In this document: positions 38,199-48,363 of the stretch, in pieces
How positions within the stretch are numbered: the first letter of the stretch is position 1
Layout: each line of letters begins with the position of its first letter
Source of the DNA: Escherichia phage 236Ecol005PP
DNA: 64,000 nt
Strand: one strand, 5' to 3'
Sequence record: PP434423.1
Notes under the pieces: generated by a model
What the model saw: the letters and a program-made list of their open reading frames with translations, nothing else
What the model was told of the DNA's origin: nothing
Databases searched by the model: none
Made by a program: the position numbers and the translations under genes

Positions 38199-39786
<1,588 letters not shown>

Positions 39787-39787
39787 A

Positions 39788-39810
39788 ATAAAATGGGCCC
39801 TTGCGGCCCA
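39788..39810 (-). terminator. hairpin between nrdB and denA (possible partial terminator)
   Basis: TGGGCC-CTTGC-GGCCCA stem with short T-run on - strand. Confidence 0.35.
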
Positions 39811-39814
39811 CTCC

Positions 39815-40984
39815 TTAAAAATATTTTTTAAAACTCATCATAACTTTATCATCAACATCATTATCAATCTGTGCTACAAGGTAAGATGAAAGTTCTACTT
39901 CTTGTGGCGCGGATTGAACATTATCAGAATTAAGATATTCACGAATCCAAGGATATGGATGTTTAACCGGAGCATCAGTAATTGGGCATGGAAGACCACA
40001 CTGTTTCATACGAGATACAGTTAAGTAATCAATAAAGCTCCACATGCTATTTGTATTTAATCCAGGAACATCGCCATCTTTAAATAAATGAACTGCCCAA
40101 TCTTTTTCTTGGCGGTTAACTTCCATGAAAATATCAACTGCTTCTTGTTCACACTCTTGAGCAATTTTAACCCATTCATCGCCATCAGTACCGGATTGAA
40201 GTTGACGAATAATATATTGAGTGCCTTTAAGGTGAAGCTGCTCATCACGAGCAATGAACTTCATAATCTTGGCATTACCTTCCATGATTTCCATGTTTTT
40301 GTGGAAGTTAAATGTACAGGCGAAAGATACATAAAAACGAATAGCTTCCAATGCGTTGATTACATGAAGGCAAAGATAAAGAGATTTCATTAGTGCTCGT
40401 TTAGTGCATTCAACAACTTTGCCTAGCTCTTCTTTACGAAATCCTTCTGATAAAATTCCTTCATAATCTTCAACCGCATTCTGATATTCACGAGTCTTAA
40501 CTAGAACATCATCGTAATAGCGACCAATGGACTCGGCACGTTTCATGATAGCTTTATCTAATACAATCTCATCAAACACTTTTGACGGATCAGTATAAAG
40601 ATTTCGCATAATATGAGTGTATGAACGGCTGTGAATAGTTTCACTAAAAGTCCATGTAGCAACCCATGTATCAAGGCTTGGGTCTGAAATTAATGACATA
40701 AGTACAGCAGACGGTGCACGACCCTGAATGCTATCTAGAAGTGATTGATACTTCAGGTTATTAGTAAAAATATCTTGCTGATACTGAGGAAGCTTGTTAA
40801 ATTGTGCAGCATCCATCATCAAGTTTACTTCTTCCGGACGCCAGAAAAATGACAACTGCTTTTCGGTTAAATCTTCAAAAACTTTATGGCGTTGAATATC
40901 ATAACGCGCAATACCAAGACCTGAACCGAAGAACATAGGTTCTTTTAAAACATCAACTGGATTTGTATTAAAAACTGTAGACAT
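39815..40984 (-). CDS. nrdB: ribonucleotide reductase small (beta) subunit, uninterrupted
   Basis: 389-aa continuous ORF; no intron. Confidence 0.9.
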   Translation of the reverse strand: MSTVFNTNPVDVLKEPMFFGSGLGIARYDIQRHKVFEDLTEKQLSFFWRPEEVNLMMDAAQFNKLPQYQQDIFTNNLKYQSLLDSIQGRAPSAVLMSLISDPSLDTWVATWTFSETIHSRSYTHIMRNLYTDPSKVFDEIVLDKAIMKRAESIGRYYDDVLVKTREYQNAVEDYEGILSEGFRKEELGKVVECTKRALMKSLYLCLHVINALEAIRFYVSFACTFNFHKNMEIMEGNAKIMKFIARDEQLHLKGTQYIIRQLQSGTDGDEWVKIAQECEQEAVDIFMEVNRQEKDWAVHLFKDGDVPGLNTNSMWSFIDYLTVSRMKQCGLPCPITDAPVKHPYPWIREYLNSDNVQSAPQEVELSSYLVAQIDNDVDDKVMMSFKKYF

Positions 40985-41019
40985 ATTATTCTCGCTTATT
41001 ATAGGTTTAAATTATTTAA

Positions 41020-41811
41020 TCACATATTGTGTATAAGCACTTCAGTCTGAAATGATGCACCTTTCTTTTGCTTCCTATACATGGTTTCAAAATATTCAAT
41101 TTTGAAATTATTAGAAAGGGCCCAATCTTTTAAAATATAATTATTAATATCGTCTGATAGATTATTAGTGATAATAAATTTAGACTTCGATTGTTTAATT
41201 TTGTCTAATAATTCTAATTCATCCTTTTCTTCCCAGCCTGAATATTTAAATTTAGTAGAAAGATATGGCGGGTCAATGAATAAATTTTTGTTTTCAAAAT
41301 CCAAATCTCTGAATGATTTATTACTAAATGTAAATCTGTGTTGTCTATTTTTAAATTCAGAAAATTTATCCTGCTGAGACTTATTAAAAGAAGTTCTGGA
41401 ATACTTGGCTCTATTGGCGAAAGCCGCGTTATAATTCCCATTACTAGAAAATCGGATTAACGAACTGAATGAAAATAAATGTAGAACATAAAGATATAGT
41501 CCGTTTTTGGTTTTATCGTATTCTTTTGACAGATTATAAAAAGGTGCTGAATCTTTGTCATTCAAATTAAAGTCTTCAATAATTTGAACTATATCATTAA
41601 TTGAAGATGATTTCATCTTATTATACATATCTATAAGAGGAGTATTAATATCATTACATATAACATCTCTCTGACAATTCATAGAAAATCCAAGACCACC
41701 ACAAAAAGCATCCAAAACAGGCTTATCGTCAAAGCGGTTTGAAAATTGTCTAATAAATGGCATATACTTATGTTTTGCACCTGGATATGTTATGGCAGGT
41801 AGGTCTTTCAT
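41020..41811 (-). CDS. Dam-family N6-adenine DNA methyltransferase
   Basis: 263-aa ORF with N-terminal YPGAK, motif I DAFCGGLG and motif IV FIDPPY in the order typical of alpha-class Dam enzymes. Confidence 0.7.
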   Translation of the reverse strand: MKDLPAITYPGAKHKYMPFIRQFSNRFDDKPVLDAFCGGLGFSMNCQRDVICNDINTPLIDMYNKMKSSSINDIVQIIEDFNLNDKDSAPFYNLSKEYDKTKNGLYLYVLHLFSFSSLIRFSSNGNYNAAFANRAKYSRTSFNKSQQDKFSEFKNRQHRFTFSNKSFRDLDFENKNLFIDPPYLSTKFKYSGWEEKDELELLDKIKQSKSKFIITNNLSDDINNYILKDWALSNNFKIEYFETMYRKQKKGASFQTEVLIHNM

Positions 41812-41854
41812 TTTATTTCTCGTTGTTAGTGACTCGTCCGTGAGTCAAATTATA

Positions 41855-42844
41855 TCATAATTTACAGGATGAACAATCTTCAGCTTTTGGAGTTTCTATT
41901 TCGTAATCATCAGTACCGGAACCATCACGAGTATTATGATAATAGAAGTTTTTAATGCCATAATACCATCCATATAGCATGTCATCAATCATTATTGACA
42001 TTGGAACCTTTCCTTTTGGAAAAATCTGCGGGTCATAATATGTATTCGCTGAAGCTGATTGACATACCCATTTAAGCATAATAGCTACCTGCGTAAGATA
42101 AGGTTTATTACCTTTCTTAGCTAATTTCCACGTATAATCATATAGGTCTATGTTATGTTCAATATTGGGCACGACTTGATTAAAGGAACCCTCTTTTGAT
42201 TCTTTAACAGAGACTGGTCCACGTGGAGGCTCGATACCATTAGTACTGTTAGAAACTTGGGAAGATGACTCACATGGCATAAGTGCTGATAATGTGCTAT
42301 TACGGATGCCAAAGAGCTTAAGGTCTTCCCGCAGCGCCGACCAGTCACAAACGTATTTTGGAGCTGCGATTTGGTCAATCTTTTTATTGTACCAGTCGAT
42401 AGGTAATTCGCCTCGAGACCAACGAGTGTCTGAATAATATTCGCAAGGTCCTTTTTCTTTGGCGAGCTTAATGGATGCTTTAATGAGTCCATACTGTAAT
42501 CTCTCAAATAGTTCATGTGTTAAATCGTTAGCATCTTCATAAGAAGCAAAGTTACTTGCCAGCCAAGCTGCATAGTTAGTAACACCTACACCAAGATTTC
42601 GACGCTTTTTAGCTTTTTCTGCTTCAGGAACTGGATATCCTTGGTAATCCAAAAGATTATCAAGAGCACGAACTTGGACTTCTGCTAATTCATTAATTTT
42701 ATCTTGGTCTTGCCAATCGAAGTTATCCAACACAAATGCGCTAAGGGTACAAAGCCCCACTTCTCCCTTGTTTTCAATAACTTCTATTGTAGTATACTCA
42801 TCATCTTCGTAAAATTCATCTACAAATTCATAATCAATATTCAT
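41855..42844 (-). CDS. nrdA: ribonucleotide reductase large subunit, C-terminal fragment
   Basis: 329-aa ORF; acidic 22-aa leader then GEVGLCTLSAF, ...LSALMPCESSSQVSNSTNGIEPPRG..., C-terminal CSSCKL typical of class Ia NrdA. Confidence 0.85.
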   Translation of the reverse strand: MNIDYEFVDEFYEDDEYTTIEVIENKGEVGLCTLSAFVLDNFDWQDQDKINELAEVQVRALDNLLDYQGYPVPEAEKAKKRRNLGVGVTNYAAWLASNFASYEDANDLTHELFERLQYGLIKASIKLAKEKGPCEYYSDTRWSRGELPIDWYNKKIDQIAAPKYVCDWSALREDLKLFGIRNSTLSALMPCESSSQVSNSTNGIEPPRGPVSVKESKEGSFNQVVPNIEHNIDLYDYTWKLAKKGNKPYLTQVAIMLKWVCQSASANTYYDPQIFPKGKVPMSIMIDDMLYGWYYGIKNFYYHNTRDGSGTDDYEIETPKAEDCSSCKL

Positions 42845-43544
42845 TTAATTCTTCTACCTTTTTTCTAGTAATTCCTAAAGCTTTAGATGCTCGATGTATT
42901 GATTGATATTCTATACCGTTTATTTTTACAGCAATTAAGTTATGGGGTTTTAATCCCTTTGGATGAGGTTTACTGACGAAAACTAAATTATCAAGCTCTG
43001 AAATCTTATCCAATTTCTTACACTTAAATCCTTTGTGATGCGCCCGTTTACCTTTACAAACGGCTGACATCGCAGATGGATTTAAATTATGCTCTTTACA
43101 AAATTCGTTAAGACCTCGATGAATTTCCTCATGACCATCTGGAAATGTAAACACCCAAGACGTTTGAAGTCGAGATTTAACTTCTGGAGACATAGGAATA
43201 CCTTTGTTCCAGGCCGGTTTGCCTTTATTATTTTCAGATACAGAAATAGCCAATTTTCTTCTAAGCCACCCATGTCGTTTATTGGTGTTCTTTCGTTCAA
43301 TATTATCTTCAGAATAAACACACATCATATTAGCGGCAAATATCAATTTATGATTATCTGGATATATCTTTACTAATAATTGATGAGCTATGTAATGCTC
43401 TTCTGGTGTCAAATCTACCAGGTTTTCCTTTGTATCAGAACCACCAATACACAGAGGTATAATATGATGTGATTCGGTATAGCAATCTAATTTTCTGTTC
43501 TTAGCTTTAGAAATAAGGTTATTGTAAATTTTAGAATAATCCAT
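42834..43544 (-). CDS. HNH homing endonuclease inserted within nrdA
   Basis: 236-aa ORF with HNH motif (HHIIPLCIGGSDTKENLVDLTPEEHYIAH) and C-terminal HTH-like segment; AGAGGA SD upstream; 3' end overlaps start of nrdA C-fragment. Confidence 0.8.
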   Translation of the reverse strand: MDYSKIYNNLISKAKNRKLDCYTESHHIIPLCIGGSDTKENLVDLTPEEHYIAHQLLVKIYPDNHKLIFAANMMCVYSEDNIERKNTNKRHGWLRRKLAISVSENNKGKPAWNKGIPMSPEVKSRLQTSWVFTFPDGHEEIHRGLNEFCKEHNLNPSAMSAVCKGKRAHHKGFKCKKLDKISELDNLVFVSKPHPKGLKPHNLIAVKINGIEYQSIHRASKALGITRKKVEELNEY

Positions 43545-43589
43545 AACTTTTCCTCTTGTTATGGATTATTTATTAACGGTCTGTGTACT
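42834..43589 (-). mobile_element. free-standing homing-endonuclease insertion splitting nrdA
   Basis: HNH ORF plus 45-nt leader lies exactly between the two nrdA pieces; too little non-ORF sequence for a group I intron core. Confidence 0.65.
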
Positions 43590-45023
43590 TTATTTGCTTT
43601 GAATTATACCGCCAGGATTAGCTTCATAAAACTTAGCTACATCCGACTTCTTAATTTTAATTAAACGGGTTTGTTGACTATTCACATCATTTGTTGGAAT
43701 AGCAATTTCACAACACAAGTTACTCTGACGAATAGGTGCTTTTTCACGAATAAATGGAGTATAGTTATTCGTATTATCAATGAACTGCACATAAATCCTT
43801 GCTGTTCCTGAGCGTTCAGTCATTAGCAATTCAAACAGTTCACGGGCTTTAATACGCTTTTTACGAATATTAGGGTCTTTTTCTGCGGCTTCATATAATT
43901 CACGGAAACGGTCTTGGTCTTTAAAATAAGAATAATAAAGCTCACCACCCATTTCATGTGGACTGAACAAAGTAATGTAGTCGTTCTTTCCAAAACGTTC
44001 CATCATCAAATCATTCAGCTGGACGCCATAATCCATATGACGGATACGGTTTTCTTCTACACCTTTGTTATTTTTCAAAACGAGAAGATTTTCAACTTCC
44101 AAATGCCAAATAGGATAATAAGCAGTAGCAGCGCCGCCACGAATTCCACCCTGTGAGCATGATTTAACAGCAGTCTGAAAATGTTTCCAAAAAGGAATAA
44201 CACCAGTATGGCGTACTTCACCTGTACCAATCTTAGAACCTTCGGCACGAATCATACCAACGTTAATACCAATTCCAGCGCGTTTGGAGATATATTCAAC
44301 AATTGAAGCGGAAACCTTATTGATAGACTTCAGCGAATCACCTGCCTCAATAACAACACATGAACTAAACTGTCGAGTCGGAGTACGACAGCCAGCCATA
44401 ATAGGAGTTGGCAATGAAATCTGTCGAGTAGATACTGCTTCATAAAAACGAATAACGTGTTTTAGTCTATCAACAGGTTCATCTTGATGCAATGCCATTC
44501 CAATAGTCATAAATGCAAACTGCGGAGTTTCATAAATTTGACCAGTGGTTTTATCTTTAACTAGATATTTTTCTTTTAATTGCATCGCCCCGGAATAAGT
44601 AAATTCCATATCCCGCTCATGCTTAATTTTTGATTCTAAAAATGTAATTTCTTCTGCTGAATATTTTGACAGCAGTTCAGGGTCATATTTACCTTCATTT
44701 ACACAGTAAGAAATATGGTCAATAAATGAACGTGGTTCATATTGTCCGTAAACATGCTTACGAAGAGCAAACATTAAACAGCGTGCAGCTACATATTGAT
44801 AATCAGGCTCTTCAACTGAAATAGAATTCGCAGCAGCCTTAATTACAATGGTTTGAATGTCATCAGTGGTCATTCCATCACGGAGATATGATTTAATATT
44901 TTCATATAATTCATAAGGATCTACAGATGTTCCTTCAGCTGCCCAAGATAAAACTTTAATAATTTTTTGCGGGTCAAAGCTCTGAGAAACACCACTACTT
45001 TTGATAACATTAATTAATTGCAT
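43590..45023 (-). CDS. nrdA: ribonucleotide reductase large subunit, N-terminal fragment
   Basis: 477-aa ORF with ATP-cone-like N-terminus and active-site motif SNLCCEIAIPT, then a 29-aa Lys-rich non-homologous tail and stop. Confidence 0.85.
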   Translation of the reverse strand: MQLINVIKSSGVSQSFDPQKIIKVLSWAAEGTSVDPYELYENIKSYLRDGMTTDDIQTIVIKAAANSISVEEPDYQYVAARCLMFALRKHVYGQYEPRSFIDHISYCVNEGKYDPELLSKYSAEEITFLESKIKHERDMEFTYSGAMQLKEKYLVKDKTTGQIYETPQFAFMTIGMALHQDEPVDRLKHVIRFYEAVSTRQISLPTPIMAGCRTPTRQFSSCVVIEAGDSLKSINKVSASIVEYISKRAGIGINVGMIRAEGSKIGTGEVRHTGVIPFWKHFQTAVKSCSQGGIRGGAATAYYPIWHLEVENLLVLKNNKGVEENRIRHMDYGVQLNDLMMERFGKNDYITLFSPHEMGGELYYSYFKDQDRFRELYEAAEKDPNIRKKRIKARELFELLMTERSGTARIYVQFIDNTNNYTPFIREKAPIRQSNLCCEIAIPTNDVNSQQTRLIKIKKSDVAKFYEANPGGIIQSK

Positions 45024-45340
45024 AAGTCCTCAACTTGAAAATCGTCTTTAAACAATCGGTTAACTATATGAGCTATTATATCACCATGACACGGCTTTGG
45101 TTTACATGTGCATCCTAGCCTCATTCCACGTAAAGGCTCTAAATGTGCTTTAGTTATTTCTCCGGATTTAATTCGACGTATAAAATCTTTTTTGAATAAT
45201 TCAATGGCAGCCTCCCGGCTGCCAGCATCTTTACCGACGTAATTTCCCCAAAATGTACCGCGGTGAATATTAACATCAAAGTCGGATTTATATTTATTCA
45301 CTACCTGGCATAGACGGCCCGCGCGGTAATAGTTCGTCAT
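45014..45340 (-). CDS. hypothetical Cys-rich protein (108 aa)
   Basis: ORF containing [12 protein letters not shown] segment. Confidence 0.45.
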
Positions 45341-45557
45341 ATTGTTTTTCCGTTAAAACAGTAATATCATAATAACAATCTGAAGAAGTTTTAACTGTAG
45401 AAATTTTATTATCAAAATACTCACGAGTCATTTTATGAGTATAATATTTTTTGCCATAAATGATAATAGGCTGTTCTGGTCCTGGAACTTCTAACTCGCT
45501 TGGATTAGGAAGTGTAAAAAGAACGACACCAGAAGTATCTTTAAATCGTAAAATCAT
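45294..45557 (-). CDS. hypothetical protein (87 aa)
   Basis: ORF downstream of td. Confidence 0.4.
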
Positions 45558-45580
45558 ATATCCTCACAATTAATAATTAA

Positions 45581-45892
45581 TTACACCGCCATTTTTCCTT
45601 TAATAGGAGGGTGTGATTCGTAACCTTTAAGAACGAAATCTTTAGGCCTGAGTTTAAGAGTGTATTCCAATTGTTCTTTAGTAGAAAGATAGCGGAATTT
45701 ATAAGGCAATCCGCCTATTACCAGTTCACAAAGCTCTTTAGGTTCACGACGTAAAATTTCTTTACATTGTTCTACGTGATTCATATAGATATGAGTATTA
45801 CCACCAGAAAATATCAAATCTCCTGGAATAAGATTACACATCTTAGCTACAATATGAACTAACGCAGCATATGATGCAATATTAAATGGAAG
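45581..45892 (-). CDS. td: thymidylate synthase, exon 2
   Basis: Encodes LPFNIASYAALV... (TS C-terminal domain); track ORF start ATG is the last three intron nucleotides. Confidence 0.85.
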   Translation of the reverse strand, partial: LPFNIASYAALVHIVAKMCNLIPGDLIFSGGNTHIYMNHVEQCKEILRREPKELCELVIGGLPYKFRYLSTKEQLEYTLKLRPKDFVLKGYESHPPIKGKMAV

Positions 45893-46146
45893 CATTATGT
45901 TCAGATAAGGTCGTTAATCTTATCCCGGAATTATATCCAGCTGCATGTCACCATACAGATCAGACTATATCTCCATCTTGATGAAGCAAGATGTCTATCG
46001 TTTCGAGTCACTTGACCCTACTCCCCAAAGGGATAGTCGTTAGGCATTTAGTTCAAAAGAACATTTAGCACGGGATTGTCTACTAGAGAGGTTCCCCGTT
46101 TAGATAGATTACAAGTATAAGTCACCTTATACTCAGGCCTCAATTA
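45893..46146 (-). other. group I self-splicing intron in td, ORF-less (about 254 nt)
   Basis: Exon 1 ends ...GTT TTC TTG GGT then TAATTGAGGCCTGAGTATAAGGTGACTTATACTTG...; intron ends ...CTGAACATAATG; both ends match the T4 td intron as recalled; no ORF inside. Confidence 0.8.
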
Positions 46147-46695
46147 ACCCAAGAAAACATCTACACTTCTTTGGTACCATTGTAAATCAAGATAACCATT
46201 ACGCACATTAAACTGATAGAACATATGACAGGGCGGTAATGCCATTTGATTGATTTCAGCTGGATTCCATGCTGAAACGATTTGACGTCGATCAGTTGGT
46301 AATTTTTTAATACGATCAATAGTTTCAACTAATTGATCCACACCACCGAAATCACGCCATTGTTTACCGTATATAGGACCAAGTTCACCACTATGATATC
46401 CTAGGTCTTTAGCCTGGTTTTCATAGTTATCGTCCCAAATAGTTTTACCTTGAATAAGACTACCATGAGTGCGAAGACGTAAATCATTAACATTGGTAGA
46501 ACCGGAAATAAACCATAGAAGCTCAGCAATGCAAGCTTTCCAAGCGAGCTTCTTAGTCGTTACTGCAGGAAAACCTTTAGTTAAATCCCAACGTAATTTA
46601 GTACCGAACAAAGCAATTGTTCCTGTGCCTGTTCGGTCATCGGTTTCATAGCCATTTTCAAAAATGTCTTTAATTAAATCTTGGTATTGTTTCAT
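46147..46695 (-). CDS. td: thymidylate synthase, exon 1
   Basis: 183 codons ending ...PPCHMFYQF...QRSVDVFLG (TS active-site Cys region). Confidence 0.85.
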
Positions 46696-46774
46696 TTAGT
46701 ACCTTATATAAATTATAATACATTTTATGAAGCTAAATAATCAATACGGTTTAGCATCAAATTTTCTTTCGATT

Positions 46775-47101
46775 TCAGGAGTGAAATATATTTTCTTTAC
46801 CACGTTTGGAAAAGCGACCAATAATATGATAATTATTCTCATCAAACGTGATATTGCCAATATCCATAGCTTTCAACCAAATATCGATATTTCTGTCAAG
46901 CTTTATATCAAAATTCCAATACGGAGAACTATTACCGAAAATACTGCAAGCGGATTCAGTGAAACAACTGCTATAAATCTTGTCTTTAGGAACTACTAAT
47001 TGATAGACGCCTTTAATAAACTGAGGACCCTGCCATTTTGGCTGTTTCGCGTCTTTTTCTAATAGAATAGGATAATAATTAAAGTTCATATTTTCCGCCA
47101 T
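46775..47101 (-). CDS. hypothetical protein (108 aa)
   Basis: ORF between frd and td. Confidence 0.45.
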   Translation of the reverse strand: MAENMNFNYYPILLEKDAKQPKWQGPQFIKGVYQLVVPKDKIYSSCFTESACSIFGNSSPYWNFDIKLDRNIDIWLKAMDIGNITFDENNYHIIGRFSKRGKENIFHS

Positions 47102-47109
47102 GCGTTATT

Positions 47110-47700
<591 letters not shown>

Positions 47701-47943
47701 TCAAACAGACTTTTTCACAATTTTCCAATCAGCTTTAAACTGTTCAACGCCAGAGTGGTAAATCCAAAATCCTGCGCTTTCTCCATCTTCATAAAGAGGG
47801 CATCCATCGCATTCATCTTCCCATCCCATATCACGTAAAAGATGTTCAGCTTTTTCAACAAGTTCAGAATCTTTACCAATGATATTAAAATACCATTTAC
47901 CTCTAACTTCTGAATCTTTAATGCTCTGGCGTTGTAATCTCAT
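47701..47943 (-). CDS. hypothetical protein (80 aa)
   Basis: ORF upstream of frd. Confidence 0.4.
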   Translation of the reverse strand: MRLQRQSIKDSEVRGKWYFNIIGKDSELVEKAEHLLRDMGWEDECDGCPLYEDGESAGFWIYHSGVEQFKADWKIVKKSV

Positions 47944-47997
47944 TTTATTCTCCTTAGTTGATAGGGTAATAGTATCACACTACTACCCTTCTGTAAA

Positions 47998-48363
47998 CTA
48001 CTTTTTGAAAGTTTTTCGCAAAAGTTCAATGATTTCATCTACATTGTTTTCGTCTACAATGCAGTGAATTTTTGTTACGCCAGAAACCTTGTCTTTGACT
48101 TCATCTTCTTCAGAAGTCGGTTCTTTATACTCGCGGAAACAATGAAATTCGTCTTCGCAGACGTTGAAGTAAAAATGCTTTCCATTTGCGCATTCAATGT
48201 GTTTTATTAATCTAAATCCATCAACAGAGAAAGCTTCTTTAACTTCAAACCATCCGCCATTTTCTTGAATAATTTTAACTATTGATGAATTAGAACGTGG
48301 GCGATAATTAATAAATGTATTAATAAGTCTTGGAACAAGCTCATACTTTTTGCCGATATACAT
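47998..48363 (-). CDS. hypothetical protein (121 aa)
   Basis: ORF between gene 32 and frd. Confidence 0.45.
   Translation of the reverse strand: MYIGKKYELVPRLINTFINYRPRSNSSIVKIIQENGGWFEVKEAFSVDGFRLIKHIECANGKHFYFNVCEDEFHCFREYKEPTSEEDEVKDKVSGVTKIHCIVDENNVDEIIELLRKTFKK

What the first reader, a model, noticed from the sequence alone, without database searches (positions are those of the whole stretch)
42834..43589. Free-standing HNH homing endonuclease with own SD, overlapping the downstream nrdA fragment
The 236-aa ORF has a canonical HNH core (HHIIPLCIGGSD...ENLVDLTPEEHYIAH) and a C-terminal HTH-like tail. It is preceded by AGAGGA and its stop overlaps the ATG of the nrdA C-fragment by about 11 nt, suggesting translational coupling that ensures expression of the downstream RNR piece. 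The expected target is the uninterrupted nrdA allele of related phages.
Basis: partly seen in the sequence, partly recalled or inferred. Interest (0 to 1): 0.6.

Follow-up and report, generated by a model that had tools for sequence, protein, structure and literature searches.

The report
MobE-type endonuclease cassette splitting nrdA
A selfish HNH homing-endonuclease gene has cut this T4-like phage's ribonucleotide reductase gene in two; it is the coliphage counterpart of the published Aeromonas phage Aeh1 mobE case, so the finding is real but of a known kind.

Summary
A 236-aa ORF lies on the minus strand at 42834..43544, between an N-terminal (43590..45023) and a C-terminal (41855..42844) nrdA fragment. 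AGAGGA sits 7 nt before its ATG, and its TGA stop overlaps the nrdA-C start by exactly 11 nt.

It is a free-standing HNH endonuclease. It shares 45% identity with Aeh1 MobE over its full length (E 5e-57). The HNH residues are invariant, and the AlphaFold model's best PDB match is I-HmuI. No intron or intein is present.

The unit is a 904-bp cassette relative to T4 nrdA. It carries a basic tail on NrdA-N and an acidic tail on NrdA-C, both homologous to the Aeh1 tails shown to be essential for enzyme activity. The same arrangement occurs in about 34 phage records and in all 8 metagenomic relatives examined.

The cassette is 97-100% identical between this Tequatrovirus and a Mosigvirus, while the flanking nrdA is 68-87% identical. 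That indicates recent homing into intact nrdA.

The translational-coupling idea is not supported. A 13-bp hairpin with covariation support buries the HNH start codon, a late-promoter-like box abuts its 5' arm, and nrdA-C has its own Shine-Dalgarno-like element in all 12 loci.

Novelty is low: this is a new member of a known kind.

The parts
43590..45023 (-). nrdA N-terminal fragment (nrdA-a equivalent), 477 aa. It contains the ATP-cone, the all-alpha domain and the first half of the barrel, including NLCCE (Cys437/Glu439, equivalent to E. coli C439/E441).
   Evidence: ORF list; Pfam PF03477, PF00317 and PF02867 positions 1-221; 96% identity to T4 NrdA.
43593..43676 (-). Basic C-terminal tail of NrdA-N (QQTRLIKIKKSDVAKFYEANPGGIIQSK; pI 10.0, charge +3.8). 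It is absent from T4 NrdA.
   Evidence: Alignment with T4, JS98 and Aeh1. The motif [TK]L[IV]K[IV][KR]KSDVxxF is conserved in all 12 cassette loci, including Aeh1. The Aeh1 tails are essential for activity (PMC3045599).
42772..43675 (-). The 904-bp insertion relative to uninterrupted T4 nrdA. It comprises both tail-coding segments, the spacer and the HNH gene. GC is 32.2% against 36.7-38.6% in the nrdA cores.
   Evidence: MAFFT alignment of the window against T4 nrdA shows a single gap at 43675..42772. This segment is 97-100% identical to Mosigvirus JM17, against 68-87% for the flanks.
43567..43574 (-). T4 late-promoter-like box AATAAATA, a 7 of 8 match to TATAAATA, overlapping the start of the 5' arm of the hairpin.
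   Evidence: Sequence. ATAAATA is invariant at the same position in 6 aligned cassettes, and the box is a perfect TATAAATA in L028, L030 and L034. Promoter function is inferred, not shown.
43535..43570 (-). RNA hairpin over the HNH translation start. The stem is 13 bp (AAUAAUCCAUAAC / GUUAUGGAUUAUU). The 10-nt loop AAGAGGAAAA holds the Shine-Dalgarno sequence (AGAGGA, 43551..43556). The AUG and the next 7 coding nucleotides form most of the 3' arm.
   Evidence: RNAfold MFE and centroid structures. Equivalent hairpins are present in all 12 loci. On alignment A2, 98.7% of cells are paired and 3 pairs carry compensatory changes, while slid controls reach 25-44%. Aeh1 has an analogous hairpin that is reported to sequester the mobE ribosome-binding site (PMC2988022, PMC3014915).
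42834..43544 (-). Free-standing HNH homing endonuclease gene (mobE-type, 236 aa). Residues 1-75 form the HNH nuclease domain (motif residues 24-54 at 43383..43475). Residues 135-173 form the I-HmuI NUMOD-like module (43026..43142). Residues about 196-233 form a terminal beta-hairpin plus two helices (42846..42959).
   Evidence: E24, H26, H27, P30, C32, G35 and N41 are invariant and H50 and H54 are over 90% conserved. The AF2 model has pLDDT 93.8. Its top Foldseek PDB hit is I-HmuI 1u3e at E 5e-5. dN/dS is about 0.1-0.2.
42851..42860 (-). Shine-Dalgarno-like element AAGGTAGAAG for nrdA-C, embedded in the last codons of the HNH ORF (..KKVEELNEY*).
   Evidence: Sequence. Every one of the 12 cassette loci has a GAGG, AGGAG or AAGGT element 3-10 nt before the nrdA-C ATG.
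42834..42844 (-). The 11-nt overlap ATGAATATTGA between the nrdA-C start codon and the HNH stop codon, in different reading frames.
   Evidence: The overlap is 1-20 nt in related cassettes.
41855..42844 (-). nrdA C-terminal fragment (nrdA-b equivalent), 329 aa. Its acidic N-terminal tail MNIDYEFVDEFYEDDEYTTIEVIENKGEV (42758..42844; pI 4.1, charge -10.5) precedes GLCTL (Cys32, equivalent to E. coli C462).
   Evidence: The YE.V.EFYEDDEYTT[IL]E[IV] motif is conserved in all 12 loci.
42700..42771 (-). Patch of elevated divergence from T4 immediately 3' of the insertion: 22 mismatches in about 70 bp, against about 2 per 50 bp elsewhere in nrdA. It is interpreted as donor-derived co-converted flank.
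   Evidence: Mismatch histogram of the window against T4 and the multiple alignment.

Best explanation
This is a coliphage copy of the Aeh1-type mobE cassette, a roughly 0.9-kb selfish element that has homed into the active-site loop of nrdA between the NLCxE and LCTL motifs.

How it most likely works:
1. The cassette encodes a modular HNH endonuclease. Its N-terminal nuclease domain is related to T4 MobE, and its C-terminal half has an I-HmuI/I-TevI-like DNA-binding architecture.
2. In a mixed infection the enzyme nicks or cuts the uninterrupted nrdA allele of a related phage near this site. Recombinational repair then copies the cassette, plus a short flank, into that phage.
3. The element needs no RNA or protein splicing. 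It brings a basic C-terminal tail for NrdA-N and an acidic N-terminal tail for NrdA-C. By homology with Aeh1, these tails let the two separately translated halves assemble into an active (NrdA-a/NrdA-b)2 large subunit.
4. Expression of the nuclease is held down on nrdA read-through transcripts, because its AUG is paired in a 13-bp hairpin. A late-promoter-like box overlaps the start of the hairpin's 5' arm. Transcripts starting there would lack most of that arm, which would release translation late in infection.
5. nrdA-C is translated from its own Shine-Dalgarno-like element, embedded in the last codons of the HNH ORF, not by obligatory coupling.

Shown here: the anatomy, the homology, the conserved tails, the hairpin covariation and the cross-genus near-identity of the cassette.
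Inferred: nuclease activity and its cut site, late-promoter use, tail function in this phage, and independent initiation of nrdA-C.
For: Architecture:
- The layout matches Aeh1. Aeh1 has nrdA-A 473 aa, a 46-nt spacer, mobE 237 aa, a 14-nt overlap and nrdA-B 323 aa. The window has 477 aa, 45 nt, 236 aa, 11 nt and 329 aa.

Homology:
- The ORF is 45% identical to Aeh1 MobE over its full length (E 5e-57).
- Aeh1 MobE's best non-self hits in 50,697 phage records are exactly these nrdA-embedded coliphage genes, at 44.5-47.6% identity; the next-best full-length (>=95% coverage) hits are at 31%.
- Its N-terminal 130 aa are 45% identical to T4 MobE (E 1e-31).
- The HNH residues are invariant. The AF2 model has pLDDT 93.8 and its top PDB match is I-HmuI.

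Tails:
- Both tails are conserved in sequence and in opposite charge across 12 loci whose endonucleases have diverged to 45% identity.
- Deleting the Aeh1 tails lowers activity about 2000-fold (PMC3045599).

Mobility:
- T4 has the empty site, and the insert is exactly 904 bp.
- The cassette is 97-100% identical to Mosigvirus JM17, while the flanking nrdA is 68-87% identical.
- A co-conversion patch lies just 3' of the insert.
- About 34 of roughly 826 nrdA-matching phage records carry the cassette.
- All 8 metagenomic homologues examined (50-67% identity) sit in the same nrdA site.
- dN/dS of the HNH gene is about 0.1-0.2.

Regulation:
- The hairpin is predicted in every locus, with 3 compensatory pairs.
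- The (T/A/G)ATAAATA box is positionally conserved.
- No sigma-70-type promoter or terminator signal stands above chance.

Not intron or intein:
- Rfam finds a group I intron only in td.
- nrdA-C is out of frame with nrdA-N, and two in-frame stop codons lie in the spacer.
Against: - No biochemical or genetic data exist for this phage or for any coliphage copy. Cleavage activity, cut site, strand specificity and homing frequency are all untested.
- Even for T4 MobE only an in vivo nick has been shown (PMC2790892).
- The late-promoter box in the window is a 7 of 8 match (AATAAATA), and part of it is constrained by being in the stem, so its conservation is not independent evidence of promoter function.
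- The window's Shine-Dalgarno-like element for nrdA-C is weaker (AAGGTAGAAG, GG 12 nt from the ATG; -4.9 kcal/mol) than in several relatives. Some contribution from termination-reinitiation therefore cannot be excluded.
- The Pfam HNH hit is below the gathering threshold (18.2 versus 21.4 bits).
- Deeper pairs show HNH divergence roughly tracking nrdA divergence, so much of the inheritance is vertical.
- The primary Aeh1 papers (Friedrich 2007; Gibb and Edgell 2007, 2009) could not be read here. They are cited through Crona 2011 and two reviews.
Confidence: 0.82

Rival explanations
1. One reading: nrdA-C is expressed mainly by translational coupling. Ribosomes finishing the HNH ORF re-initiate at the overlapping ATG, so HNH translation guarantees supply of the downstream reductase piece.
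For: - The 11-nt overlap is real.
- The HNH stop lies 1-20 nt beyond the nrdA-C ATG in all 12 related loci.
- The window's own Shine-Dalgarno-like element for nrdA-C is only moderate.
- Overlaps of this kind are discussed as possible coupling for other T4 endonuclease genes (PMC2988022).
Against: - The HNH AUG is sequestered in a conserved hairpin. The equivalent hairpin is reported to reduce MobE translation in Aeh1 (PMC3014915, PMC2988022).
- Coupling would therefore tie an enzyme needed early and in 1:1 stoichiometry with NrdA-N to a deliberately repressed gene.
- Every locus has a Shine-Dalgarno-like element 3-10 nt before the nrdA-C ATG.
- The overlap length is not conserved (1, 8, 11, 14 or 20 nt).
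- The Aeh1 polypeptides are described as independently translated (PMC3045599, Fig. 5 legend).
Confidence: 0.12
2. The endonuclease is no longer an active homing enzyme in this phage. The ORF persists because it cannot be deleted without destroying nrdA-C's ribosome-binding site, start codon and tails. Alternatively it persists because it has been co-opted, for example to damage co-infecting phages' nrdA as a competition weapon.
For: - The nrdA-C Shine-Dalgarno-like element and ATG lie inside the HNH 3' end, so that end is dual-coding and constrained.
- In deep comparisons HNH divergence tracks nrdA divergence, which suggests long vertical co-inheritance.
- One relative (P0012) has lost 15 residues that include H50 and H54 yet keeps the split arrangement.
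Against: - Purifying selection acts over the whole ORF, not just its 3' end (dN/dS about 0.1-0.2).
- All catalytic residues are intact in the window copy.
- The cassette is 97-100% identical between two genera whose nrdA flanks are 68-87% identical. That requires a recent site-specific transfer.
- A competition role is not exclusive of homing.
Confidence: 0.15
3. The intervening sequence is removed by splicing, either as a group I intron carrying the HNH ORF or as a split or degenerate intein. In that case a single NrdA polypeptide would be restored.
For: - RNR genes of T-even phages commonly carry introns and inteins. td in this same window has a group I intron.
- One related locus (L028) has a mini-intein 17 codons upstream in nrdA-N.
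- Crona et al. raised a degenerate-intein origin for the tails.
Against: - A sensitive Rfam E-value scan of 39000-48000 finds no intron model between 41800 and 45100.
- NrdA-N ends in a stop codon followed by a second in-frame stop, and nrdA-C is in a different frame.
- There are no Hint or intein Pfam hits on the window fragments.
- The tail ends lack intein junction residues: no Cys or Ser at the tail start and no HN before GLCTL.
- Separate Aeh1 polypeptides carrying the tails were detected by mass spectrometry (PMC3045599).
Confidence: 0.02

Closest known systems
Aeromonas phage Aeh1 nrdA-a / mobE / nrdA-b 'genes-in-pieces' ribonucleotide reductase (Friedrich et al. 2007 PNAS; Gibb and Edgell 2007, 2009; Crona et al. 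2011, PMC3045599)
   Same: - The insertion point is the same, in the loop between NLCxE and LCTL.
- Gene order, spacer length (45 versus 46 nt) and the overlap of the HNH stop with the nrdA-b start (11 versus 14 nt) match.
- The endonucleases are full-length homologues and reciprocal best relatives.
- The tails are homologous: basic CTE (RLIKIKKSDVAKF versus MLFKVKKSEVDKF) and acidic NTE (YEDDEYTTIEV versus YEDEEYTTVEI).
- Both have a hairpin over the endonuclease translation start with a late-promoter-like box.
   Different: - The host lineage differs: Tequatrovirus coliphage versus Cinqassovirus.
- Protein identity is only 45%.
- The hairpin sequence and geometry differ. In the window the AUG is in the stem and the Shine-Dalgarno sequence is in the loop. 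In Aeh1 the Shine-Dalgarno sequence is in the stem.
- nrdA sits in the T4-like td-nrdA-nrdB position here, whereas in Aeh1 it lies elsewhere in the genome.
- Nothing has been tested experimentally for the coliphage copies.
Phage T4 MobE, a free-standing HNH endonuclease between nrdA and nrdB (Wilson and Edgell 2009, PMC2790892)
   Same: The N-terminal HNH domain is homologous (45% identity over 130 aa, E 1e-31). Both are free-standing, sit in the nrd region, and are transcribed by read-through from nrdA promoters.
   Different: - T4 MobE is 141 aa and lacks the NUMOD-like and terminal helix modules.
- It is intergenic and targets nrdB, not nrdA.
- It is regulated by an internal terminator and a 1-nt UAAUGA overlap with nrdA rather than by a hairpin.
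- In the window the T4 mobE slot holds a Dam-like methyltransferase ORF instead.
I-HmuI (PDB 1u3e), the intron-encoded HNH homing endonuclease of Bacillus phage SPO1
   Same: It is the best structural match to the AF2 model (Foldseek E 5e-5, 167 aligned columns). It shares the extended architecture of an HNH domain followed by NUMOD-like and helical DNA-binding modules (Pfam PF22083 E 1.7e-9; phmmer E 0.0044).
   Different: I-HmuI is intron-encoded, shares only 16% identity, and its HNH core sequence belongs to a different subtype. TM-scores are low (0.25-0.33) because the inter-domain geometry differs.
T4 mobA insertion splitting topoisomerase gene 39/60, with CTE and NTE extensions (bioRxiv 10.1101/2022.08.31.505936; Crona 2011 discussion)
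   Same: A Mob-family HNH gene splits an essential enzyme gene within a functional site, and oppositely charged tail extensions are added to the two products. [quoted passage not shown]
   Different: The target gene differs, and the mobA element also carries the 50-nt translational bypass cassette. No bypass signal is needed or seen here.

Membership tests
HNH (beta-beta-alpha-metal) endonuclease superfamily | Catalytic His (general base), structural or metal-site Asn, and distal metal-binding His in the H-N-H order | tested here: met
   H26, H27 and N41 are invariant, and H50 and H54 are at least 90% conserved, in a 120-sequence alignment. The core aligns to the EcoKMcrA HNH motif in 6ghc.
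HNH (beta-beta-alpha-metal) endonuclease superfamily | Pfam PF01844 HNH profile match at or above the curated gathering score | tested here: not met
   The score is 18.2 bits (E 0.0028) against a cut-off of 21.4. Aeh1 MobE scores 17.2 and T4 MobE only 21.5, so the profile is weak for the whole Mob clade rather than for this protein in particular.
HNH (beta-beta-alpha-metal) endonuclease superfamily | Beta-hairpin followed by a helix carrying the motif residues (fold) | tested here: met
   The AF2 model (pLDDT 93.8) has strands at 24-27 and 42-45 followed by a helix at 47-60. Foldseek hits are I-HmuI, Cas8-HNH and McrA HNH domains.
Free-standing homing endonuclease genes of T4-like phages (Mob family) | N-terminal HNH domain homologous to T4 Mob proteins, with a variable C-terminal DNA-binding half | tested here: met
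   The protein is 45% identical to T4 MobE over residues 1-129 (E 1e-31). Most of the 120 best database hits share only the N-terminal 42-59% of the protein.
Free-standing homing endonuclease genes of T4-like phages (Mob family) | Not embedded in a self-splicing intron or an intein | tested here: met
   No Rfam intron model matches between 41800 and 45100. There are no Hint or intein Pfam hits, the gene has its own start and stop codons, and the neighbouring pieces are in different frames.
Free-standing homing endonuclease genes of T4-like phages (Mob family) | Site-specific nicking or cleavage of the endonuclease-lacking allele, and super-Mendelian inheritance | not testable with these tools
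   Only indirect evidence is available: the empty site in T4, cross-genus near-identity of the cassette, and a co-conversion patch.
Aeh1-type nrdA-splitting mobE cassette | Insertion in nrdA between the NLCxE and LCTL active-site motifs, giving separate nrdA-a and nrdA-b ORFs | tested here: met
   In the window, Cys437/Glu439 are in NrdA-N and Cys32 is in NrdA-C. In Aeh1 the equivalents are Cys431/Glu433 and Cys31.
Aeh1-type nrdA-splitting mobE cassette | Full-length orthology of the endonuclease to Aeh1 MobE | tested here: met
   BLASTP gives 45% identity over 227 of 236 residues, E 5e-57. The two are reciprocal closest relatives in the phage collection.
Aeh1-type nrdA-splitting mobE cassette | Basic C-terminal tail on NrdA-a and acidic N-terminal tail on NrdA-b, homologous to those of Aeh1 | tested here: met
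   The motifs are conserved in 12 loci. The pI values are 10.0 and 4.1 here, against 9.9 and 4.1 computed for Aeh1 and 10.4 and 3.8 as published.
Aeh1-type nrdA-splitting mobE cassette | RNA hairpin masking the endonuclease translation start, with a late promoter placed to bypass it | tested here: inconclusive
   The hairpin criterion is met, with covariation support.
Aeh1-type nrdA-splitting mobE cassette | The split reductase is enzymatically active and tail-dependent | not testable with these tools
   Inferred from the intact catalytic residues in both fragments, their 94-96% identity to T4 NrdA and strong purifying selection (dN/dS 0.04-0.16).
Intein-encoded or group I intron-encoded endonuclease | In-frame Hint domain with Cys/Ser...His-Asn junctions, or a group I ribozyme core flanking the ORF | tested here: not met
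   For contrast, the related locus L028 does show a true mini-intein (CLSGDS...VHN|C) elsewhere in nrdA-N, and the window's td gene shows a true group I intron.

The most novel reading that the evidence does not exclude
The roughly 0.9-kb unit is not a one-off 'transposition accident', as first proposed for Aeh1. It is an old, self-contained and splicing-independent class of mobile cassette that repeatedly homes into one nrdA codon position across at least three T4-like lineages (Tequatrovirus, Mosigvirus, Cinqassovirus) and several metagenomic lineages.

Its portable 'antidote' would be the pair of conserved tails (..LIKIKKSDV..F and ..YEDDEYTTIEV..). These would form an intermolecular, charge-complementary beta-ribbon that replaces the severed active-site hairpin loop. 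The cassette also carries the nuclease's hairpin and late-promoter switch and the downstream fragment's ribosome-binding site.

If so, it could be a general, transplantable device for splitting and reassembling proteins without inteins.
Probability: 0.55. Interest if true: 0.5.

Novelty: new member of a known kind. Interest (0 to 1): 0.3.

Why it matters
The kind of element is already known. The Aeh1 case showed that a homing endonuclease can split an essential active site and supply peptide tails that restore enzyme assembly. A 2022 preprint notes in passing that 'several others' exist.

This window and its relatives add comparative evidence that was lacking in 2010, when database searches with the tails found nothing:
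- The tails are conserved motifs, not random fused DNA.
- The hairpin at the nuclease start codon covaries.
- The whole cassette has moved recently between phage genera.

Together these make the tail-assembly and late-switch models testable in the tractable E. coli/T4 system, and they give a natural sequence family for engineering intein-free split proteins.

For annotation: nrdA in these phages is not a pseudogene, and the two ORFs should be labelled nrdA-a and nrdA-b.

Tried and rejected
- **IMG/VR scan with the HNH protein.** It returned only distant or partial relatives (at most 50% identity over the N-terminal half, or C-terminal module hits). None was useful for context, so I did not pursue it.
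- **tblastn with the first 45 aa of NrdA-C to list all cassette carriers.** BLAST's low-complexity filter masked the acidic tail (residues 1-17), so coverage could not separate carriers from non-carriers. The apparent 70% matches in JS98-type phages were ungapped extension into the ordinary loop; JS98 NrdA has the T4-type loop.
- **Search for an uninterrupted NrdA that already contains tail-like sequence, as a possible donor of the tails.** I used a fused CTE+NTE query. Only 12 candidates were collected. The two full-coverage hits are ordinary NrdA proteins with the short loop. The result is inconclusive and the origin of the tails remains unknown.
- **Sigma-70 promoter and intrinsic-terminator scan of 41700-45500.** Counts were not above the shuffled expectation. 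There is no T4-mobE-like internal terminator on the gene strand.
- **Reading the primary Aeh1 papers.** They are not held in the library.
- **Intron and intein readings.** Both were considered and rejected.


Full report
**1. What is at the coordinates**

The window is a T4-like coliphage segment whose genes run on the minus strand in the T4 order frd - td - nrdA.2 - nrdA.1 - nrdA - nrdB - denA (compare T4). The ORF list gives three adjacent ORFs:
- a 477-aa ORF at 43590..45023;
- a 236-aa ORF at 42834..43544;
- a 329-aa ORF at 41855..42844.

Pfam places the ATP-cone, the all-alpha domain and positions 1-221 of the RNR barrel on the first ORF, and positions 219-523 of the barrel on the third. 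These two ORFs are therefore the two halves of nrdA.

The middle ORF begins 45 nt after the nrdA-N stop codon. AGAGGA lies 7 nt upstream of its ATG. Its TGA stop is 11 nt beyond the nrdA-C ATG (ATGAATATTGA).

The one omission is that the feature is on the minus strand.

**2. It is an HNH endonuclease of the Mob family**

- PHROG 655 'homing endonuclease' matches at E 6.9e-59.
- Pfam I-HmuI_NUMOD-like matches residues 135-173 above its cut-off (E 1.7e-9).
- The generic Pfam HNH model is just below its cut-off (18.2 versus 21.4 bits). The same model gives only 21.5 bits for T4 MobE and 17.2 bits for Aeh1 MobE, so this is a weakness of the profile for the whole clade.
- In an alignment of the 120 best of 1756 database homologues, E24, H26, H27, P30, C32, G35 and N41 are invariant. 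H50 and H54 are at least 90% conserved.
- The core aligns to the HNH motif of EcoKMcrA (6ghc), and the C-terminal half aligns to I-HmuI (1u3e).
- An AlphaFold2 model (mean pLDDT 93.8) shows the beta-beta-alpha unit (strands 24-27 and 42-45, helix 47-60). It also shows a small beta/alpha module at 129-177 and a terminal beta-hairpin plus two helices at 206-233.
- The only significant PDB match of the model is I-HmuI, at E 5e-5 over 167 columns.

**3. It is free-standing**

A permissive Rfam scan of 39000-48000 finds a group I intron only in td (45941..46156, 72.7 bits). Nothing is found around the HNH gene.

NrdA-N ends at TAA, and a second in-frame TAA follows in the spacer. nrdA-C is in a different frame from nrdA-N. 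There are no Hint or intein hits on the window fragments.

**4. It is the coliphage counterpart of the Aeh1 mobE cassette**

Aeromonas phage Aeh1 has nrdA-A (473 aa), a 46-nt spacer, mobE (237 aa), a 14-nt overlap and nrdA-B (323 aa). This layout is almost superimposable on the window's.

The endonucleases are 45% identical over their full length (E 5e-57). When Aeh1 MobE is searched against 50,697 phage records, its best non-self hits are exactly the nrdA-embedded genes of coliphages, at 44.5-47.6% identity. The next-best full-length (>=95% coverage) hits are at 31%. T4's own MobE shares only the N-terminal domain.

The split falls at the same place:
- T4: NLCCEIAIPTNDVNS|PDAEI|GLCTL.
- Window NrdA-N ends ..NDVNSQQTRLIKIKKSDVAKFYEANPGGIIQSK*. 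Window NrdA-C starts MNIDYEFVDEFYEDDEYTTIEVIENKGEVGLCTL...
- Aeh1 has ..KEKMLFKVKKSEVDKFKLMVATDQYKSLRY* and MIEHERIYEVYEDEEYTTVEIEVDVSEISLCTL...

The tails are therefore homologous, not merely analogous.

Crona et al. showed that deleting the Aeh1 tails lowers activity about 2000-fold. They proposed that the tails drive assembly of the (a/b)2 large subunit. At that time, database searches with the tails found nothing (PMC3045599).

**5. How widespread and how conserved it is**

- In the phage collection, 32 records align over at least 80% of the 3.3-kb split region.
- 34 records have an endonuclease at least 80% identical to the window's. These include Mosigvirus phages (JM17, ZQ3, AV111) with identical spacing.
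- Eight further full-length homologues from metagenome assemblies (50-67% identity) were looked up. All eight lie between an nrdA-N and an nrdA-C ORF.

Across the 12 loci compared:
- the C-terminal tail keeps the motif [TK]L[IV]K[IV][KR]KSDVxxF, with pI about 10;
- the N-terminal tail keeps YE.V.EFYEDDEYTT[IL]E[IV], with pI about 4.1;
- the HNH stop always lies 1-20 nt past the nrdA-C ATG.

[quoted passage not shown] The class is therefore known, although the coliphage copies appear not to have been described in detail.

**6. Evidence that it is, or very recently was, mobile and targets intact nrdA**

- Aligned to T4 nrdA, the window differs by one clean 904-bp insertion (42772..43675). T4 thus shows the empty site.
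- Against Mosigvirus JM17, identity is 97-100% from about 42750 to 43700 but 68-87% in the flanking nrdA coding sequence. The JM17 endonuclease differs from the window's by one residue. This is the signature of a recent site-specific transfer between genera.
- Immediately 3' of the insert, the window has 22 mismatches to T4 in about 70 bp, against about 2 per 50 bp elsewhere. This fits a short co-converted donor flank.
- The endonuclease ORF is under purifying selection (dN/dS about 0.1-0.2; dS is saturated, so this is approximate).
- The insertion site encodes active-site residues that are highly conserved, which is the usual homing-endonuclease strategy.

Actual cleavage, the cut site and homing frequency remain untested. 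For T4 MobE the literature shows an HNH-dependent in vivo nick and co-conversion (PMC2790892).

**7. Regulation, and why the coupling idea fails**

The spacer and the first codons read ..GTTAATAAATAATCCATAAC-AAGAGGAAAA-GTTATGGATTATT... RNAfold pairs AAUAAUCCAUAAC with GUUAUGGAUUAUU as a 13-bp stem. This puts the Shine-Dalgarno sequence in the loop and the AUG inside the stem.

Every related cassette folds into an equivalent stem over its start codon. On a six-sequence alignment:
- 98.7% of cells pair;
- three pairs show compensatory double changes, for example MDY/GAU versus MNY/AAC matched by changes in the 5' arm;
- sliding the partner strand drops pairing to 25-44%.

Aeh1 has a different-sequence hairpin at the same place. 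Reviews state that this hairpin reduces mobE translation and that, as for I-TevI, a late promoter is placed so that late transcripts lack the inhibitory arm (PMC2988022 section 12; PMC3014915).

In the window, the box AATAAATA (7 of 8 of TATAAATA) overlaps the start of the 5' arm. ATAAATA is invariant in the six aligned cassettes, and three of them have a perfect TATAAATA. Late-promoter use is an inference. No sigma-70 promoter or terminator signal stands out.

The nuclease is thus built to be poorly translated from the nrdA read-through message, while NrdA-C is needed early and in 1:1 stoichiometry with NrdA-N. Obligatory coupling would therefore be counter-productive. Three further points argue the same way:
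- Each of the 12 loci has a Shine-Dalgarno-like element (GAGG, AGGAG or AAGGT) 3-10 nt before the nrdA-C ATG.
- The overlap length is not conserved.
- The Aeh1 pieces are described as independently translated.

A minor contribution from re-initiation cannot be excluded, because the window's element (AAGGTAGAAG) is only moderate.

**8. Verdict**

The coupling mechanism is not supported.

I file it as a new member of a known kind. The added value is comparative: conserved tail motifs, hairpin covariation and cross-genus transfer. These move the Aeh1 model into T-even coliphages, where it can be tested genetically.

**9. Limits**

- All functional statements rest on homology and comparative sequence patterns.
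- The origin of the tails could not be resolved.
- A heteromeric or fused structure prediction was not possible.

Noticed in passing
window 45941..46156 (-); td exons about 46144..46695 and 45581..45895: The thymidylate synthase gene is interrupted by a short group I intron (Rfam RF00028, 72.7 bits, full-length model match). There is no room for an I-TevI ORF, unlike the 1-kb td intron of T4. This looks like an endonuclease-less intron about 2.4 kb upstream of the HNH cassette.
   Followed up: partly
window 41020..41811 (-): A 263-aa D12-class N6-adenine DNA methyltransferase ORF (Pfam PF02086, E 1.2e-23, with a DPPY motif) occupies the nrdA-nrdB intergenic slot where T4 has mobE and nrdB.1. 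It is only about 34% identical to T4 Dam and is rare: 4 phage records at >=99% identity (for example T4_ev240) and 4 more at 60-90%. It appears to be a second, orphan methylase in a known hotspot for mobile genes.
   Followed up: partly
L028 607..2451 (nrdA-N of a metagenomic relative): This nrdA-N carries a mini-intein of about 138 aa (CLSGDS...ILVHN|C; Pfam PT-HINT and Intein_splicing) inserted just before the catalytic Cys, only 17 codons upstream of the mobE-type cassette. An endonuclease-less intein this close might be mobilised in trans by the neighbouring HNH enzyme, as T4 MobE does for the nrdB intron.
   Followed up: no
window 43000..43199 versus L024/L025 (ZQ3, AV111); proteins P0002, P0003: The endonuclease alleles are mosaics. 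ZQ3 and AV111 are 97-100% identical to the window across the cassette except for a 200-bp patch (about 69% identity) in the NUMOD-like DNA-binding module. The UFV-AREG1/HY01 allele (P0003) has a 65%-identical HNH domain joined to 98-100%-identical middle and C-terminal segments. This suggests module shuffling between alleles.
   Followed up: partly
L034 618..1286 (protein P0012): One relative has a 15-residue deletion that removes PEEHYIAHQLLVKIY, including the conserved H50 and H54. It still sits between tailed nrdA-N and nrdA-C ORFs. It is probably a degenerate, inactive endonuclease retained because the split gene depends on the cassette.
   Followed up: no
window 42834..42860 (-): The conserved HNH C-terminus ..KKVEELNEY* is dual-coding. 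The same nucleotides supply the nrdA-C Shine-Dalgarno-like element, the ATG and the first codons (MNID..). This likely explains why 'EELNEY' is conserved among otherwise divergent endonuclease C-termini.
   Followed up: partly
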